A DNA stretch of 64,000 bases from Nitrospirota bacterium (GTDB taxonomy: Bacteria; Nitrospirota; Thermodesulfovibrionia; Thermodesulfovibrionales; UBA9159), in NCBI GenBank assembly GCA_021790195.1, contig JAJYIF010000011.1, forward strand, positions 19,069 through 83,068, in the 5' to 3' direction. The notes beneath the pieces were generated by a model that did no database searches, was not told the origin of the DNA, and saw nothing but the letters and a program-made list of their open reading frames with translations. Position numbers and translations under genes: made by a program. This document shows positions 17,203 to 58,697 of the stretch, piece after piece; position 1 is the first letter of the stretch, and each line of letters begins with the position of its first letter.

Positions 17203-17313
17203 TTGGCCGTGTCCTCGGCGTGTACCCCCAAAATACCCATGCCGGGCGATTTACTTATCTGTGCTGTTCCGGTAGCATTCTTCAAGGTAAAATACTAACA
17301 CGGATTATTTGTT

Positions 17314-17432
17314 AACTTCGTTGCATGACGGGCAGATACGACTCAAAACCTTTTTGAAATCGACGGGATATCATGATCGGGAAGCCGGGATTAATGAAAA
17401 CCGACTGTAGCGACATGTGTCAAAGCGCTTAT
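17314..17432 (+). repeat. Conserved non-coding element, copy 1, upstream of a PilZ gene
   Basis: 119 nt. In my hand alignment, 106 of 120 columns are identical to the reverse complement of 58520-58639. It ends 64 nt before the PilZ start at 17497. Confidence 0.85.
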
Positions 17433-17496
17433 TGGGAATCTGCATTAAGGCGTTGGAACAAGAAAGTCTTGAGTTGCATCTGCCAATATTTTATGG

Positions 17497-17868
17497 ATGA
17501 TGTGGGCTAAAGATATGGAAACTCCGGTCGAGGGAAAGAAACGCCAGATAAGGTTTATAAAAAGGTGCGAGGTCGAGTTTTCATCGGACAGCGTGACCCG
17601 CAGGGGAATATCCTCCAACCTGTCGTTGAACGGTCTCTTCATCAGGACGGACCTTCCTTTCTTCCCGAACACGATACTCGACATGGTGATCTATCTTCCC
17701 GACGGTTCGGTCTCCGTACTGAAAGGGCGGGTCACAAGGTCGTCAAGGACGTCCCTTGGGATCACGGGGACGCACCTGAAGAATTTCAAGAACGGAATGG
17801 GCATCGAGATCATAAACAGGGACATCAATTATCAGAACTTTATCGGCTCGCTGTTGCGCGAAGCGTGA
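17497..17868 (+). CDS. Single-domain PilZ (c-di-GMP-binding) protein
   Basis: RFIKR (RxxxR) and NLSLNG ((D/N)xSxxG) motifs, and a C-terminal GMGIEI. The start is uncertain (17497 or 17515). Confidence 0.8.
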   Translation: MMWAKDMETPVEGKKRQIRFIKRCEVEFSSDSVTRRGISSNLSLNGLFIRTDLPFFPNTILDMVIYLPDGSVSVLKGRVTRSSRTSLGITGTHLKNFKNGMGIEIINRDINYQNFIGSLLREA

Positions 17869-17955: not shown

Positions 17956-18255
17956 ATGGAACGGAGATCTCATATTCGTTATGAATTGAGACGGGACATA
18001 AAGTATGTGTTGAATTTAGCGACTTCGGAAGAAGTCTTTAAGGGAATTACCGTTAATATAAGTGATGTCGGGCTCGGCATGTACACATTTGATTTTCTCC
18101 GTGTCGGTCAGGAAATAACGATCACAAGCGGTCTCGATGACACCTGCCGCGAGGGCACTATAAAGTGGTGCGAGGAGCTTGGGGAGAATGTCTACAGGGT
18201 AGGGTTGCTTTTTAATACCGGGGAGCGGTTCACTTCATCAAGTCGCCGATCCTGA
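17956..18255 (+). CDS. Single-domain PilZ protein
   Basis: RSHIR and NISDVG motifs. The 3' end runs into the aldo/keto reductase remnant. Confidence 0.8.
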   Translation: MERRSHIRYELRRDIKYVLNLATSEEVFKGITVNISDVGLGMYTFDFLRVGQEITITSGLDDTCREGTIKWCEELGENVYRVGLLFNTGERFTSSSRRS

Positions 18256-18598
18256 AAGAAGGGCTGGGAGTGATCACCTATTCCTCCCTCGCACGCGGGT
18301 TTCTTACCGGCAAATACCGTTCGAAAGGGGACCTCGCGAAAAACGGACAACGGCGTTTGTCGAGAAGTATCTGAATGAGCGAGGGGTGCGGATACTCGAT
18401 GCCCTGGATCAGGTAGCGGGGAGGTTCGACTCCACTCTTGCCGCAGGATCTCTAGCCTGGGTGATGGCGCGTCCGGGTATAATCGCGCCCATTGCAAGCG
18501 CCGCCAATTTGGACCAGTTGAACGATTTCGTCAAAGCCGCAAATCTCAAGCCGGACCCGGTTTCGATCGGGCAGCTTGAGAAAGCTAGCTCTTATTGA
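18216..18598 (+). pseudogene. Aldo/keto reductase remnant (C-terminal third only, frameshifted)
   Basis: ...ILKEGLGVITYSSLARGFLTGKYRS... stops at about 18353. A second frame continues ...EKYLNERGVRILDALDQVAGRF...IIAPIASAANLDQLNDFV. No N-terminal two-thirds of the gene is present. Confidence 0.7.
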
Positions 18599-53606: not shown

Positions 53607-55061
53607 ATGGAACTTTATACATTGGACATATCGGAGCTGAGAAGACTTCTTGACCGCAGAGAGGTGTCGGTCGGGGAGGTTGTCGATTCCGTCTACAAGA
53701 GGATCGATGCGGTGGAAGGCCGCGTGAAAGCCTTCGTCACTCTCACAAAAGAAGAGGCGCTGAAGATGGCCGGCCCGGCCCAGAAGAAGATCGATAATAA
53801 AGAGCCGGGGACGCTCCTCGGCATCCCGATCGCGATCAAGGACAACATGTGCGCGAAGGGCATAAGGACGACATGCTCCTCCAGGATTTTGGAGAAGTTT
53901 GTCCCGCCGTACGAAAGCACAGTGACTTCGAGATTGAAGGAACATGGGTATATCCTTGTCGGGAAGACGAACCTCGACGAATTTGCCATGGGCTCGTCCA
54001 CCGAGAATTCCGGGTTCCACACCACGAGAAATCCGTGGGACACTGCGAGGATCCCCGGTGGGAGCAGCGGCGGATCGACGGCTGCGGTGGCCGCGGATGA
54101 GTGCATGGCGGCCCTAGGTTCGGATACGGGGGGCTCCATCAGGCAGCCCGCGTCCCTTTGCGGAGTAGTAGGTCTGAAACCCACCTACGGGAGGGTGTCG
54201 AGATACGGACTCGTAGCCTTTGCGTCATCCCTCGATCAGATCGGCCCTATAACGAAAAACGTGTCTGATGCCGCATTGATCATGAACGTTATTTCGGGCC
54301 GGGACCTTCTCGACTCCACGTCGGCCCCGGTCGATGTGCCGGACTTTACCCGGATACTTGGACAGGATGTCAGGGGACTGAAGATCGGCGTGCCGAAGGA
54401 ATACTTTATCGAGGGCATGGAGGAAGACGTGGTCAATTCGGTGAAGGCCGCCGTCAGACAGATCGAGTCATTGGGCGCCGTGCCTGTCGAGATCTCTCTT
54501 CCGCATACGGACTATGCCATTGCCACATATTACCTCCTCGCGACCTCGGAAGCATCGTCGAACCTTGCGCGGTATGACGGGGTGAAATACGGGTTCAGAG
54601 AGAACGGCAAGGACCTCCTTGAGATGTACATGAACACACGTGCAGCCGGTTTCGGAGCGGAGGTGAAACGGAGGATCATGCTCGGCACTTATGCGCTTTC
54701 CTCGGGATACTATGACGCTTATTATAAAAAGGCCCAGCAGGCAAGGACCCTGATAAAGAAGGACTTCGAGCAGGCATTGAAGACCGTGGATATTATTGTG
54801 ACGCCCACCTCTCCCACCGCTGCCTTTAAGATCGGAGAAAAGGCGGATGACCCTCTGCAGATGTACCTCTCGGATATATTCACGATATCCGTGAACCTCG
54901 CAGGCGTGCCCGCGATTTCGATCCCCTGCGGATTCACGCGTGACGATCTGCCCGTGGGACTGCAACTCATCGGAAGACATTTTGATGAGGAGACGATACT
55001 GAAAGTTGCATACGCGTACGAGCAGTCAACGGAGTGGCACAAGAGGAAACCGAAGCTGTAA
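53607..55061 (+). CDS. gatA: Glu-tRNA(Gln)/Asp-tRNA(Asn) amidotransferase subunit A
   Basis: Amidase signature ...[13 protein letters not shown]....[32 protein letters not shown]... Confidence 0.95.
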
Positions 55062-55112
55062 GTGTGCGGAGCAGCTCCCGGCTGTCTATTTCGGCCGGTC
55101 TGCTTTCAATGA

Positions 55113-56402
55113 TCAGGATGAGCGGCCAATTTTCTTGCGGCCCAGAAAATAGACGGTGGAGGCCCCCAATGCGCAGAAAAGACCCCCTGCCTGCAAGGCA
55201 TGGCCGGACCCCACTCGTTGGGCGATGATTCCCATCCAAAAGCTTCCGATCGGCATACTCCCGCCGAAGACCAGTGCCCAAATACCCATCAGCCTTCCCC
55301 TCAGGTGATCGGGAGACTGGGTCTGGATGATGCTGTTTCCGATCGAGAAAAATAAGATGATGCCGAACCCGGCGAAGAATAGCAGGAAGGCCGCGCCGAC
55401 CGGATGCCGCATCAGACCGAACAGGACGATAAATGCCGCATAAATGCCTGTGCCGGCATAAAGCGTCCTGACGCGAACGATACGAGATCCTTGTGCGGCG
55501 ACGAATAAAGCTGCGGTACAAGCGCCGAGGCCGTTCAGGGCCAAAAGCCATCCATATCCCTGGGCGTCCATTTTCAACTGGGTTACCGCGAAGGCTGACA
55601 GCTGCGATCGGTAGGCCCAGCCTCCCAATCCCATGATGAAAAGCAGGGTCACCGCCTGGGCTATGGTGGGATTTGTCTTTAAATATTTGAATCCTTCCAA
55701 GGTATATTTCCAGTCTGCCTTTACTTTTTTTGGCGCGTAGTGCGAAGCCGGCAGCCGGATTTTATGAATGGCATAAAGGACCGCCAGATAACTCACGGCA
55801 TCCAAAAGGAAGCACCAGGGAGCCCCGAAGGATGCGAGTAAGAGACCTCCGATAGCTGGGCCGATGACCCGGGTCGAATTCACCATGGCGCTGTTGAGCG
55901 CGATTGCGTTCACCAAATCCCTCTTGCCCACCAGTTCCACCATCAGTGTCTGACGTGAAGGCATCTCAAAGGCGGTGAATAGTCCCCAGAGGGCGGAAAA
56001 GATCATTAGATATGCAATGTGAACGGGACCACGGAACAGCATGACAGCCAAAGTCAATGAGGAAAGGAGCGAAAGCCAGCTCGTCAAAGTGAAGATCCTG
56101 ATCTTGGGGATCCGGTCGGCAAGAGAACCCGCATAAACGGCGAAAAGGAAAATGGGAAGGGAATTGAGCATGAAGACGATACCCAGCAAGAATTCCGAAT
56201 GTGTGAACTGAAAGGCGATCCAGCCAAGGGCGGCGGTGCGGGCCCAGGTCCCGATCAAGGAAACTGTTTGTCCCGAATAAAAATAGCGGTAATTAGGATT
56301 GCGCAAGGCGGAAAGAGTCTTATGCCATCCTTTAAGAGGAGGCAGTCCCTCACTGTTTGCTCCTGATTGCTGCAATGTCTCCTGAGAGTTCCCTGAACTC
56401 AA
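55113..56402 (-). CDS. MFS transporter (MFS_3 / enterobactin-exporter-like)
   Basis: 429 aa with 12 predicted TM segments: ...NPNYRYFYSGQTVSLIGTW... and ...LADRIPK... Confidence 0.85.
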   Translation of the reverse strand: MSSGNSQETLQQSGANSEGLPPLKGWHKTLSALRNPNYRYFYSGQTVSLIGTWARTAALGWIAFQFTHSEFLLGIVFMLNSLPIFLFAVYAGSLADRIPKIRIFTLTSWLSLLSSLTLAVMLFRGPVHIAYLMIFSALWGLFTAFEMPSRQTLMVELVGKRDLVNAIALNSAMVNSTRVIGPAIGGLLLASFGAPWCFLLDAVSYLAVLYAIHKIRLPASHYAPKKVKADWKYTLEGFKYLKTNPTIAQAVTLLFIMGLGGWAYRSQLSAFAVTQLKMDAQGYGWLLALNGLGACTAALFVAAQGSRIVRVRTLYAGTGIYAAFIVLFGLMRHPVGAAFLLFFAGFGIILFFSIGNSIIQTQSPDHLRGRLMGIWALVFGGSMPIGSFWMGIIAQRVGSGHALQAGGLFCALGASTVYFLGRKKIGRSS

Positions 56403-56676
56403 TCATTCCCCCTGGTCTGCGCTTTTTAGAATGACGGAATACGCTTTTGAGCCTCTGAAAGAAGAACATAAAAGAGGCGTTTCCTCCTGTCTTTCAAAAT
56501 ACCTGTATTCCTTATCGGCGGAACAAGCACCATTATATCAGATAGTATTTCCTTTTCGAGTTTGACCTCTTGTCACTTCCTGAAAGAGTCGATGGTCAAA
56601 GTGTATAATATACCGTTATGGTCGCTGGACAGGGCCTGTGCCAACGCAGCGATCAATGCACGGATTACCGGTGAAC

Positions 56677-58107: not shown

Positions 58108-58437
58108 TCAGGAAAGGCTTCTGCCGTGCTGGAAGGACCGTATCAGTTTGAGATAACCGGGGCACGTTTCGACAAGCTCAATGCCCATGCCGTTTTGCCG
58201 GACCGATATAGCGGAAGTCTCGGCGTACTTGATAACCCCTTTCATACGGCATGAACTTTCTTCGGTTAAAGACAGGTCTATATCTACCGTAGTGCCGACA
58301 TTGAAGACCTTTTGGGCCCTTACAAAGAAGCCCTTTTCCGAAACCCTGACGGTGGTCCCCTTTATGACCCGGTCCCCCGCGGTCACCTCCACAGGAAGCT
58401 TTATCAGAAAACGTTCGCTTTCCCGCTTGACAACCAT
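58108..58437 (-). CDS. Single-domain PilZ protein
   Basis: RESER (RxxxR) and RVSEKG (a variant of (D/N)xSxxG) motifs, and NGMGIEL shared with the PilZ at 17497. Confidence 0.75.
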   Translation of the reverse strand: MVVKRESERFLIKLPVEVTAGDRVIKGTTVRVSEKGFFVRAQKVFNVGTTVDIDLSLTEESSCRMKGVIKYAETSAISVRQNGMGIELVETCPGYLKLIRSFQHGRSLS

Positions 58438-58519
58438 CGCCTAATATTAGCAGTTATCGAGTGCTAAGTCCACCTCTTGCCGCAGGCTTCTCATAGACCA
58501 TCAGCAACATGAATTTCCG

Positions 58520-58639
58520 ATAAGCACTTTGACACATGTCGCCACAGTCGGTTTTCATTAATCGCGGCTTCCGGGTCACGATATCGCGTCGATTGCAAGA
58601 AAAGTCTTGAGTCGTGTCTGCCCGTCATGTAACGAAGTT
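58520..58639 (-). repeat. Conserved non-coding element, copy 2, upstream of a PilZ gene
   Basis: 120 nt. The reverse complement aligns to 17314-17432, with 106 of 120 columns identical by hand. It ends 82 nt before the PilZ start at 58437. Confidence 0.85.
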
Positions 58640-58697
58640 CATGAATAATCTGAGTATATATGGAAATTATAGCAAAGGGCGGAAGTTCCTCAAGCCT

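What the first reader, a model, noticed from the sequence alone, without database searches (positions are those of the whole stretch)
17314..17432. About 120-nt non-coding element duplicated upstream of two distant PilZ genes, conserved far better than the genes
Sense-strand sequence 17314-17432 and the reverse complement of 58520-58639 align with 106 identical positions out of 120 columns (hand alignment, one 1-nt indel). Both copies lie in the same orientation relative to a downstream single-domain PilZ gene, 64 nt and 82 nt before the starts at 17497(+) and 58437(-). The two PilZ proteins share little beyond the PilZ motifs and NGMGIE. The upstream element is therefore under much stronger constraint than the coding sequence, or it spread recently. 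The small ORF opening in the element (MTGRYDSKPF* in copy 1) is not frame-conserved in copy 2, which argues that the element is non-coding. The element contains four CGAC(T/G) motifs and a small conserved hairpin (CGTT-[G/A]CAT-GACG) whose only substitution falls in the loop. The T-to-C change in CAGATACG and the A-to-G change in CTGTAGCG are compatible with a compensatory UACG/UGUA pairing. Candidate roles are a cis-regulatory leader RNA (plausibly second-messenger responsive, given the c-di-GMP receptor genes), a shared transcription-factor platform, or a small mobile repeat.
Basis: seen in the sequence. Interest (0 to 1): 0.6.

Follow-up and report, generated by a model that had tools for sequence, protein, structure and literature searches.

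The report
Duplicated upstream segment of PilZ genes
A non-coding stretch of about 140 bases from the control region of one c-di-GMP-receptor (PilZ) gene has a second copy that a genome rearrangement placed in front of another PilZ gene; the repeat is real but confined to one small clade, and nothing identifies it as a riboswitch or a widespread RNA family.

Summary
The repeat is real. Window 17298-17439(+) matches 58655-58513(-) at about 87% identity (E 1e-37), and it is the only sizeable dispersed repeat in the window. It is non-coding and matches no Rfam family. It folds no better than shuffled sequence, and the substitutions among the three available copies give no covariation signal beyond chance.

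In the nearest relative (GCA_021813095.1) the element sits upstream of the PilZ1 ortholog. There it is 88.6% identical, against 77% at four-fold sites, so it is constrained. It is absent upstream of that relative's PilZ2 ortholog (94% aa), where a GNAT acetyltransferase gene sits instead.

The window still holds the last nine GNAT codons immediately 3' of copy 2. A gene block that adjoins PilZ2 in another relative lies inverted about 9-11 kb away. Copy 2 therefore reached PilZ2 through a rearrangement, and it lacks the 3' arm of a 26-nt inverted repeat that the PilZ1 leader has in both species.

PilZ homologs at 56-75% identity lack the element. Short exact-word scans of genome and metagenome collections returned only chance hits.

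Best reading: a clade-restricted, partly duplicated cis-regulatory leader or promoter segment, a two-member "putative mobile promoter" family. This is ordinary, and interest is low to moderate.

The parts
17298..17439 (+). Copy 1 of the element, in the intergenic region between an epimerase/DUF1731 gene and PilZ1.
   Evidence: blastn and the repeat finder against copy 2. The ortholog in L003 (2204-2346) is 88.6% identical, against 77% neutral.
58513..58655 (-). Copy 2 of the element, between the endonuclease III (nth) stop codon and the PilZ2 upstream region. It lacks the 3' arm that the copy 1 leader has.
   Evidence: It is 90% identical to the L003 copy. It is absent from the orthologous PilZ2 loci L021/L022 and from L023 and L024.
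17515..17868 (+). PilZ1 gene (117 aa), 75 nt downstream of copy 1.
   Evidence: Exact match to P0001; Pfam PilZ.
58108..58437 (-). PilZ2 gene (109 aa), 75 nt downstream of copy 2.
   Evidence: Called gene in L037; Pfam PilZ; 25% identical to PilZ1.
17331..17356 (+). 5' arm, inside the element, of a 26-nt imperfect inverted repeat in the PilZ1 leader.
   Evidence: the repeat finder I1, 81% complementary. Duplex energy -28.9 kcal/mol against -13.3 +/- 3.0 for shuffles, 0 of 500 as good. The same feature is present in L003 at -27.0.
17459..17484 (+). 3' arm of that inverted repeat, outside the shared element, 30 nt before the PilZ1 ATG. Copy 2 has no counterpart.
   Evidence: The copy 2 duplex is not significant (49 of 500 shuffles as good).
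17394..17510 (+). Upstream ORF (38 codons, MKTDCSDMCQSAY...). It starts in the most conserved block of the element and ends at a TAA 4 nt before the PilZ1 ATG.
   Evidence: Six-frame translations and the sequence. The same arrangement occurs in L003. The peptide itself is not conserved.
58454..58558 (-). The same upstream ORF in copy 2 (34 codons). It reads in frame through the GNAT remnant and stops 22 nt before the PilZ2 ATG.
58478..58504 (-). Remnant of the last nine codons (LMVYEKPAA) of a GNAT acetyltransferase gene. This marks the rearrangement junction just 3' of copy 2.
   Evidence: Alignment with L021/L022. The L021 ORF ends ...VLMVYEKPAA*. It is GNAT by Pfam, E 5.6e-10. Homology with L021 starts at window 58509.
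17223..17282 (+). A second conserved block upstream of copy 1 that copy 2 does not share. It contains a promoter-like TTTACT(17250)-N17-TAGCAT(17278).
   Evidence: 55 of 60 positions identical between the window and L003. The hexamers were read from the sequence; at 8 of 12 matches they fall below the scan tool's threshold.
58666..58693 (-). Promoter-like site TTGAGG-N16-TATAAT with an upstream TG, directly 5' of copy 2 and just after the nth stop codon.
   Evidence: scan_promoters_terminators, 10 of 12 matches. One such site per region is about what shuffles give.
58444..58472 (-). PilZ2's own proximal promoter-like motif, TGGACT-N17-TAATAT, ending 6 nt before the ATG.
   Evidence: Conserved in L021, L023 and L024, all of which lack the element.

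Best explanation
The element is a clade-restricted piece of the cis-regulatory region (the transcribed leader) of the PilZ1 gene, and copy 2 is a partial paralogous copy of it.

At the PilZ1 locus the layout is as follows:
- The element lies just downstream of a separately conserved, promoter-like block.
- It supplies the 5' arm of a 26-nt long-range inverted repeat. The 3' arm sits 30 nt before the start codon.
- It carries the start of a 38-codon upstream ORF that ends 4 nt before the PilZ1 ATG, which has no clear Shine-Dalgarno sequence (my reading of the sequence).

The inferred mechanism is that PilZ1 expression is set by leader folding and/or by translation of the upstream ORF, through termination-reinitiation coupling.

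Copy 2 is the first ~140 nt of such a leader. A rearrangement in the window's lineage joined it to the PilZ2 upstream region. That event was an inversion and/or deletion that destroyed a GNAT gene. Copy 2 now lies behind another promoter-like site and ahead of PilZ2's own conserved proximal promoter. It may add a second, leader-bearing transcript in which the upstream ORF reads through the junction, or it may simply be tolerated.

Shown here: the homology, the non-coding nature, the constraint at the PilZ1 locus, the absence from the orthologous PilZ2 locus, the GNAT remnant, the inversion relative to L024, and the inverted repeat.

Inferred: transcription start sites, action at the RNA level, coupling through the upstream ORF, and any function for copy 2.
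For: - Homology: 87% over 138 nt, E 1e-37.
- Constraint: element orthologs 124/140 identical, against 77.2% at 597 four-fold sites (binomial p = 4.5e-4) and 78.6% in flanking intergenic DNA. Orthologous conservation falls off near 17440-17456, about where the copy 1 / copy 2 homology ends.
- Secondary association with PilZ2: L021 and L022 (PilZ2 94% aa) have a GNAT gene upstream and no element. The GNAT tail is retained at 58478-58504. The HSP20 / inositol-phosphate synthase / CDP-OH transferase block that precedes PilZ2 in L024 lies inverted in the window's contig.
- The arrangement is identical in an independent assembly (L038).
- Restricted distribution: no element upstream of PilZ1 homologs at 56-63% identity (L004-L006, L033) or PilZ2 homologs at 73-75% (L023, L024). 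Scans of genome, metagenome and viral collections with exact 16- to 19-base words returned chance hits only.
- Leader features: the inverted repeat is present in copy 1 and in L003 (duplex -28.9 and -27.0 kcal/mol, 0 of 500 shuffles as good). Cognate arms pair better than swapped arms.
- The upstream ORF is open in all three copies, and its stop lies next to the PilZ1 ATG in both species.
- Promoter-like sites lie immediately 5' of both copies, in non-homologous sequence (sequence reading at 17250-17278).
Against: - There are no transcript data, and the promoter calls are at chance frequency.
- There is no thermodynamic or covariation support for a fold of the shared 140 nt.
- Retention of the long-range duplex between the two species is only suggestive, p about 0.07. 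The antisense strand pairs at least as well (-32.6 kcal/mol), so a DNA-level or antisense role is equally possible.
- The upstream ORF's peptide is not conserved: I count 4 non-synonymous and 1 synonymous differences in the shared codons.
- Copy 2 lacks the 3' arm, so whatever depends on that helix cannot work there.
- PilZ2 keeps its own conserved proximal promoter.
- Only about 69 kb of this genome and about 9 kb of the relative could be examined, so the genome-wide copy number is unknown.
Confidence: 0.4

Rival explanations
1. DNA-level regulatory module. The element is a platform for one or more DNA-binding regulators, or carries an alternative-sigma promoter, and it was copied without its gene. 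This is 'promoter propagation', and it would put both PilZ genes under one regulator.
For: - It meets the operational definition of a putative mobile promoter (tested).
- Constraint ends about 75 nt before both start codons.
- The invariant 37-nt block GATTAATGAAAACCGACTGTRGCRACATGTGTCAAAG contains an AAC-N18-TCAAA arrangement that resembles ECF sigma-type promoters. Its only two variable sites fall in the spacer (my reading).
- Four same-strand CGAC motifs occur against 0.56 expected.
- The inverted repeat is at least as good on the other strand.
- The distance from element end to ATG is 75 nt in both copies.
Against: - No recognisable sigma-70, sigma-54 or sigma-28 site is conserved inside the element (manual reading).
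- Two of the four CGAC motifs are mutated in L003.
- The internal direct repeats are at chance level by my rough estimate and were not reported by the repeat finder.
- The ECF-like reading is post hoc, and I did not look for a sigma or regulator gene.
- PilZ2 already has a conserved proximal promoter.
Confidence: 0.25
2. Small non-autonomous repeat. The element belongs to a genome-wide family of short palindromic intergenic repeats (MITE, ERIC or Correia-like), and its position before two PilZ genes is coincidence.
For: - Two copies in 69 kb would extrapolate to tens of copies per genome.
- The copy 1 unit in both species is a long imperfect palindrome: in L003, arms at 2202-2221/2398-2417 and 2236-2270/2358-2392.
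- Copy 2 sits at a rearrangement breakpoint, as repeats often do.
- One Logan contig (L002) starts inside copy 1.
Against: - There are no terminal inverted repeats or target-site duplications at the boundaries of the shared unit.
- Copy 2 is not a clean insertion; its 5' flank is not homologous to the relative's locus.
- Only two copies were seen, and there is no other repeat family and no third copy in the extra 5.3 kb of the contig. No transposase gene was looked for.
- The orthologous copy is under purifying selection, which is unusual for a selfish repeat.
- No relatives were found in 596 Gb of representative genomes or in the JGI metagenomes, by exact 18- and 19-mers.
Confidence: 0.12
3. 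Neutral relic. Copy 2 is a functionless leftover of a segmental duplication and rearrangement, and its similarity reflects age rather than selection.
For: - Copy 2 lacks the 3' arm and sits on a junction that also carries a dead GNAT fragment.
- The same genome shows other decay and rearrangement: a 689-bp deletion in an aldo-keto reductase gene and a 1.6-kb insertion between gatA and gatB.
- PilZ2 orthologs function without the element.
Against: - Copy 2's private branch (8 substitutions and one indel in 141 columns) is no longer than that of the constrained copy 1 (10 substitutions). Copy 2 is 90% identical to the other species' copy, although neutral divergence between the species is 23%.
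- The upstream ORF stays open across the junction, and the GNAT stop codon was removed by a 3-nt deletion.
- This explanation addresses copy 2 only. It does not explain the constraint on copy 1.
Confidence: 0.15
4. Ligand-sensing structured RNA. The element is a new riboswitch-like aptamer, for example for c-di-GMP or a related nucleotide, controlling PilZ genes.
For: - The gene association is with c-di-GMP receptors.
- The element lies at the predicted 5' end of transcripts.
- Two small hairpins show pairing-compatible changes. In CAARA/UYUUG an A-U pair is replaced by G-C in copy 2. In the 3' hairpin CCGA..RGCR/YGCU..UYGG there are G-C, A-U and G-U variants.
Against: - There is no Rfam match at gathering threshold or at E <= 10; the only hit is a chance archaeal snoRNA match at E 0.64.
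- MFE z-scores are +0.86 for both copies.
- The single-sequence folds differ, and 3-7 pairs are broken per comparison.
- The covariation term is -0.66 kcal/mol with one double change among 32 pairs, and the null test is not significant.
- The distribution is limited to two species, whereas aptamers are normally widespread.
- There is no expression platform: no terminator and, in copy 2, no pairing with the spacer before the start codon.
Confidence: 0.06

Closest known systems
Putative mobile promoters / promoter propagation (Matus-Garcia, Nijveen and van Passel 2012, PMC3488235)
   Same: These are highly similar non-coding stretches (at least 50 nt at 80% identity or more) upstream of genes whose coding sequences do not align, with unrelated upstream neighbours. 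Families are as small as two members, and more than 4000 families were found in 1043 genomes. The present pair meets those criteria.
   Different: The category is operational and implies no mechanism. Here the way the copy reached the second gene can be partly reconstructed: a rearrangement that truncated a GNAT gene. The two downstream genes are distant paralogs at the protein level (25% identity, E 1e-9), not truly unrelated.
Short palindromic intergenic repeats: ERIC, Correia/NEMIS and other MITEs (from general knowledge)
   Same: They are 100-200 nt non-coding units in intergenic, often co-transcribed positions. They are imperfect palindromes and can supply promoters or processing sites. 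They are associated with rearrangement breakpoints.
   Different: No terminal inverted repeats or target-site duplication bound the shared unit. Only two copies were seen. The orthologous copy is under purifying selection. Copy 2 is not a clean insertion.
c-di-GMP-I (GEMM) and c-di-GMP-II riboswitches
   Same: They occupy the 5' leader position, and their gene context concerns c-di-GMP signalling.
   Different: Neither covariance model matches. There is no stable or conserved fold and no expression platform. The phylogenetic range is tiny.
Leader upstream ORFs with translational coupling or attenuation (from general knowledge, e.g. leader-peptide operons)
   Same: A short ORF starts in the most conserved block of the leader. 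It ends 4 nt before the main start codon, which has no clear Shine-Dalgarno sequence. A long-range helix could be opened by translation.
   Different: There is no terminator or anti-terminator pair. The peptide sequence is not conserved. Coupling is inferred only from geometry. In copy 2 the ORF ends 22 nt before the ATG.

Membership tests
Putative mobile promoter (PMP) family, as defined in PMC3488235 | At least 50 nt aligned at 80% identity or more between upstream regions of two genes in one genome. | tested here: met
   138 nt at 87%. About 75 nt of it lies within the -50 to -150 window used by the authors (element at -76 to -217).
Putative mobile promoter (PMP) family, as defined in PMC3488235 | Neither the downstream CDSs nor the upstream CDSs align (BLAST E < 1e-4). 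| tested here: met
   The best blastn hit between PilZ1 and PilZ2 has E 0.011 (18 nt). Epimerase against nth gives E 0.35 or worse. The proteins are nevertheless distant paralogs (BLASTP E 1e-9).
Putative mobile promoter (PMP) family, as defined in PMC3488235 | The sequence actually acts as a promoter or regulatory region. | not testable with these tools
   Only consensus scans are available. No transcript data exist.
c-di-GMP-I / c-di-GMP-II riboswitch (Rfam) | A match to the family covariance model at the gathering score. | tested here: not met
   There are 0 matches in the whole window at gathering threshold. None to these families appear at E <= 10 around either copy.
Riboswitch or structured cis-regulatory RNA in general | A conserved secondary structure supported by covariation and by stability above background. 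| tested here: not met
   z = +0.86 for both copies. The folds are inconsistent and pairs are broken. The alifold covariation term is -0.66 kcal/mol. The null test gives 123 of 400. Only three sequences exist, so power is low.
Riboswitch or structured cis-regulatory RNA in general | An expression platform: a terminator, or sequestration of the ribosome-binding site. | tested here: inconclusive
   No intrinsic terminator was found. Copy 1 and L003 have a long-range helix ending 30 nt before the ATG. Copy 2 has none.
MITE or short palindromic repeat (ERIC / Correia-like) | Terminal inverted repeats and a target-site duplication at the unit's boundaries. | tested here: not met
   The boundary sequences show neither. 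The 26-nt inverted repeat of copy 1 is internal-to-external, and copy 2 does not share it.
MITE or short palindromic repeat (ERIC / Correia-like) | Many dispersed copies per genome, and empty sites in relatives. | tested here: inconclusive
   Two copies were found in 69 kb. The relative's PilZ2 locus lacks the element but is not a clean empty site.
Independent small RNA gene | Its own promoter and an intrinsic terminator bounding the conserved unit. | tested here: not met
   Promoter-like sites lie 5' of both copies but are not homologous, and the -10-like TAAAAT next to copy 1 is not conserved in L003. No terminator-like site was found.
Small protein-coding gene | An ORF conserved in frame, with an excess of synonymous change. 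| tested here: not met
   The long ORF is intact only in L003. It has a stop in copy 1 and a frameshift in copy 2. The differences in its frame are almost all amino-acid-changing (translations, counted by eye).

The most novel reading that the evidence does not exclude
The element is the core of an undescribed leader RNA specific to one Thermodesulfovibrionales clade. It combines an upstream ORF with a long-range helix, and possibly binds a regulator or ligand, to control a c-di-GMP receptor gene. A natural rearrangement transplanted its functional 5' module onto a second PilZ gene, placing both receptors under one control. This would be a caught-in-the-act example of regulatory rewiring by leader capture.
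Probability: 0.12. Interest if true: 0.5.

Novelty: new member of a known kind. Interest (0 to 1): 0.25.

Why it matters
If the element is functional, it shows how a bacterium can bring a second c-di-GMP receptor gene under the control region of another without duplicating the gene, and the rearrangement scar (the GNAT remnant) is still visible. That makes it a tidy natural example of promoter or leader capture, but the phenomenon is already known to be common in prokaryotic genomes. The finding opens no long-standing question and gives no evidence for a new RNA class. Its main practical value is as a caution. High similarity between upstream regions alongside low similarity between the genes can arise from rearrangement, and need not mean exceptional constraint.

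Tried and rejected
- Rfam, at gathering threshold on the whole window and at E <= 10 on both copies: nothing except a chance snoRNA hit.
- Exact-word scans. An 18-mer against 596 Gb of representative genomes gave 9 hits, all limited to the word itself. A 19-mer against the JGI metagenomes gave 5 chance hits. Two words against viral contigs gave chance hits. The window's species and its relative are evidently not in those collections, so these scans say little about diverged copies.
- nhmmer with a three-copy profile against every fetched locus found only the known copies.
- I suspected that the first 60 nt of contig L021, upstream of the GNAT gene, might be a diverged element. Local alignment is no better than shuffles (130-256 of 1000), so this is rejected.
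- A GNAT body elsewhere in the window or contig: tblastn finds only the tail remnant.
- An nth-linked element in other Thermodesulfovibrionales. The closest non-self nth homologs are only 79-81% identical. The one examined (P0167) has a different downstream gene. L006 has nth, a 70-nt gap and then a PilZ1-like gene, with no element.
- Protein-coding reading of the element: rejected.
- Sigma-54, sigma-28 and sigma-70 sites inside the element, checked by manual reading: none is conserved in all copies.
- Strand asymmetry of the long-range helix as a test for RNA-level selection: none; the antisense strand is at least as stable.
- Structure-preserving substitution tests were not significant.
- One look-up was wasted on an RpoD ORF whose called start differs.

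Full report
**1. Observation.** Reading both regions and aligning them confirms a shared non-coding segment. blastn of 17300-17445 against the window returns 58650-58513 on the minus strand: 138 columns, 87% identity, one 1-nt gap, E 1.2e-37. The repeat finder extends the pair to 17298-17439 / 58513-58655, and it is the only substantial dispersed repeat in the 64 kb. Both downstream genes are single-domain PilZ proteins by Pfam. They are 25% identical and have no nucleotide-level alignment. Public gene calls start PilZ1 at 17515 (P0001). With that start, both copies end exactly 75 nt before the start codon.

**2. Source and relatives.** The PilZ and nth homologs identify the organism as an uncultured Thermodesulfovibrionales (Nitrospirota) bacterium. 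The same contig occurs in several assemblies. The Nth / copy 2 / PilZ2 arrangement is 100% identical in an independent Logan assembly (L038), so it is not a chimera. Only one close relative is available, GCA_021813095.1. Its PilZ1 is 87% identical and its PilZ2 94% identical to the window's proteins at the amino-acid level.

**3. Not coding, and not a known RNA.** Six-frame translation shows one long ORF that is intact only in the relative. It is interrupted by TGA in copy 1 and by the 1-nt indel in copy 2, and by eye the differences in its frame are almost all amino-acid-changing. Rfam gives nothing at gathering threshold. At E <= 10 it gives only a chance snoRNA hit. Each copy folds less stably than its shuffles, z = +0.86. 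No terminator-like site was found.

**4. Distribution.** The relative has the element upstream of its PilZ1 ortholog (L003 2204-2346). PilZ1 homologs at 56-63% identity lack it (L004-L006, L033). PilZ2 homologs at 73-75% identity also lack it (L023, L024). Exact 16- to 19-base words from its most conserved blocks hit only chance sites in the representative-genome, JGI metagenome and viral collections. The element is therefore confined, as far as can be seen, to one genus-level clade.

**5. Constraint.** Identity at four-fold degenerate sites between the window and the relative is 77.2% (597 sites, five genes). Flanking intergenic DNA is 78.6% identical. The element is 88.6% identical (124/140), binomial p = 4.5e-4. 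A separate upstream block, 17223-17282, is 92% conserved and contains TTTACT-N17-TAGCAT. Conservation dips between that block and the element, and again after about 17441-17456. Copy 1 is therefore a constrained module inside a structured intergenic region.
- Among the three copies, the private changes number 10 (copy 1), 4 (L003) and 8 plus one indel (copy 2).
- The duplication is therefore roughly as old as the species split.
- Copy 2 has not evolved faster than copy 1.

**6. How copy 2 came to sit before PilZ2.** In the relative, and in a second sample (L021, L022), the 94%-identical PilZ2 is preceded by a GNAT acetyltransferase gene (Pfam E 5.6e-10) that ends ...VLMVYEKPAA* 40 nt before the ATG. 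There is no element.
- In the window, homology with that locus begins at 58509, within a few bases of the end of the element at 58513.
- The window still reads LMVYEKPAA at 58504-58478. The body of the GNAT gene is nowhere in the window or in the extra 5.3 kb of contig.
- A more distant relative (L024) has HSP20, inositol-phosphate synthase, CDP-alcohol transferase and a cold-shock gene, in that order, before PilZ2. In the window's contig the first three genes lie inverted at window-equivalent coordinates of about 67.4-69.3 kb.
- Copy 2 thus lies at one breakpoint of a rearrangement in the window's lineage. The rearrangement was an inversion of at least 10.8 kb and/or a deletion.
- The 'element conserved, genes not' contrast follows from joining a PilZ1-type upstream segment to an unrelated PilZ gene.
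- One distant genome has nth followed directly by a PilZ1-family gene (L006). This hints that an nth / element / PilZ1-type arrangement may once have existed here. No PilZ1 paralog from this genome appears among the homologs.

**7. Anatomy bearing on mechanism.**
- (a) Promoter-like hexamers lie just 5' of both copies in non-homologous DNA: TTGAGG-N16-TGcTATAAT at 58693-58666 and TTTACT-N17-TAGCAT at 17250-17278 (my reading). If they are real, the element starts within about 15 nt of the transcript's 5' end.
- (b) In copy 1 and in L003, but not in copy 2, element positions 17331-17356 are complementary to 17459-17484, which lies 30 nt before the ATG. The duplex energies are -28.9 and -27.0 kcal/mol against about -13 +/- 3 for shuffles, with 0 of 500 shuffles as good.
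- Cognate arms pair better than swapped arms, and retention against random mutation gives p about 0.07. The antisense strand pairs at least as well, so this does not prove an RNA role.
- (c) The invariant 37-nt block carries ATG AAA ACC GAC TGT..., the start of an ORF that is open in all three copies.
- In copy 1 and L003 this ORF ends at a TAA 4 nt before the PilZ1 ATG, which has no clear Shine-Dalgarno sequence by my reading. In copy 2 it runs in frame into the GNAT remnant, whose stop codon has been lost through a 3-nt deletion, and stops 22 nt before PilZ2. The peptide is not conserved.
- (d) PilZ2 has its own proximal TGGACT-N17-TAATAT motif ending 6 nt before the ATG. The motif is conserved in relatives that lack the element, so PilZ2 does not depend on copy 2.

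**8. Structure tests.**
- RNAalifold on the three copies gives -18 kcal/mol, a covariation term of -0.66 kcal/mol and one double change among 32 pairs.
- Single-sequence folds disagree, and substitutions break 3-7 pairs per comparison.
- For the full PilZ1 leader of the two species, every varying pair in the consensus is wobble-compatible. However, placing the same 35 substitutions at random gives an equal or better consensus energy in 123 of 400 trials.
The numbers are too small to carry weight.

**9. Interpretation.** The evidence best fits a clade-restricted cis-regulatory segment of the PilZ1 upstream region that was partly duplicated and then brought in front of PilZ2 by rearrangement.
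- I favour a transcribed-leader mechanism, combining the upstream ORF with the long-range helix (confidence 0.4).
- A purely DNA-level platform or promoter is second (0.25).
- The remaining rivals are a neutral relic for copy 2 (0.15), a genome-wide small palindromic repeat (0.12) and a ligand-sensing RNA (0.06).
- Operationally the pair is a two-member 'putative mobile promoter' family as defined by Matus-Garcia et al. 2012 (criteria tested). More than 4000 such families are known, so the finding is a new member of a known kind.

**10. Limits.**
- Only three copies exist (two independent loci and one ortholog), so covariation tests have little power.
- Only about 69 kb of this genome and about 9 kb of its relative could be read.
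- There are no expression data.
- The far end of the inferred inversion lies 1-2 kb beyond the sequence I could fetch.

Noticed in passing
window 18250/18251, with remnant ORF 18386-18598: Compared with the relative (L003 3164-3852), 689 bp are missing, which removes the 5' two-thirds of an aldo-keto reductase gene (318 aa in L003). The window keeps only a C-terminal fragment, so this is a recent deletion or pseudogene.
   Followed up: partly
window 55058-56676: A 1.6-kb segment carrying an MFS transporter gene (55113-56402, minus strand) lies between gatA and gatB. Those two genes are directly adjacent in L021 and L024, so this is a lineage-specific insertion that splits the gatAB pair.
   Followed up: partly
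L037 52-1940 (window-equivalent about 67.4-69.3 kb), compared with L024 10-1928: The HSP20 / inositol-phosphate synthase / CDP-alcohol transferase block immediately precedes PilZ2 in L024. In this genome it lies inverted, about 9-11 kb from PilZ2. This indicates a large inversion with one breakpoint at the 3' end of copy 2.
   Followed up: partly
window 58444-58472 (minus strand): The motif TGGACT-N17-TAATAT ends 6 nt before the PilZ2 ATG and is conserved in four relatives down to about 75% nucleotide identity. There is no clear Shine-Dalgarno sequence, which suggests a leaderless or near-leaderless PilZ2 mRNA.
   Followed up: partly
window 58475-58483, compared with L021 478-492: A 3-nt deletion in the window removes the TGA stop codon of the GNAT remnant. 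As a result, the upstream ORF that starts in copy 2 continues 7 codons further, to 22 nt before PilZ2.
   Followed up: no
window 17223-17282: A second intergenic block is 92% conserved between the two species and is not shared with copy 2. It contains a promoter-like TTTACT-N17-TAGCAT and is probably the native PilZ1 promoter region.
   Followed up: partly
window 17956-18255: A third PilZ-domain gene (99 aa, Pfam E 1.5e-5) lies directly downstream of PilZ1. It probably forms a two-gene PilZ operon, which is conserved in the relative (L003 2869-3162).
   Followed up: no
homolog list (e.g. P0029, P0052, P0067): Many more distant PilZ1 homologs are 150-200 aa long and carry an N-terminal zinc-ribbon domain (PF21352 or PF13719) fused to PilZ. 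The window's protein is the short, PilZ-only form.
   Followed up: no
window 17439 and 58513, relative to the start codons at 17515 and 58437: The shared homology ends exactly 75 nt before the start codon in both copies, although the two spacers are unrelated. This could be coincidence or a spacing requirement.
   Followed up: no
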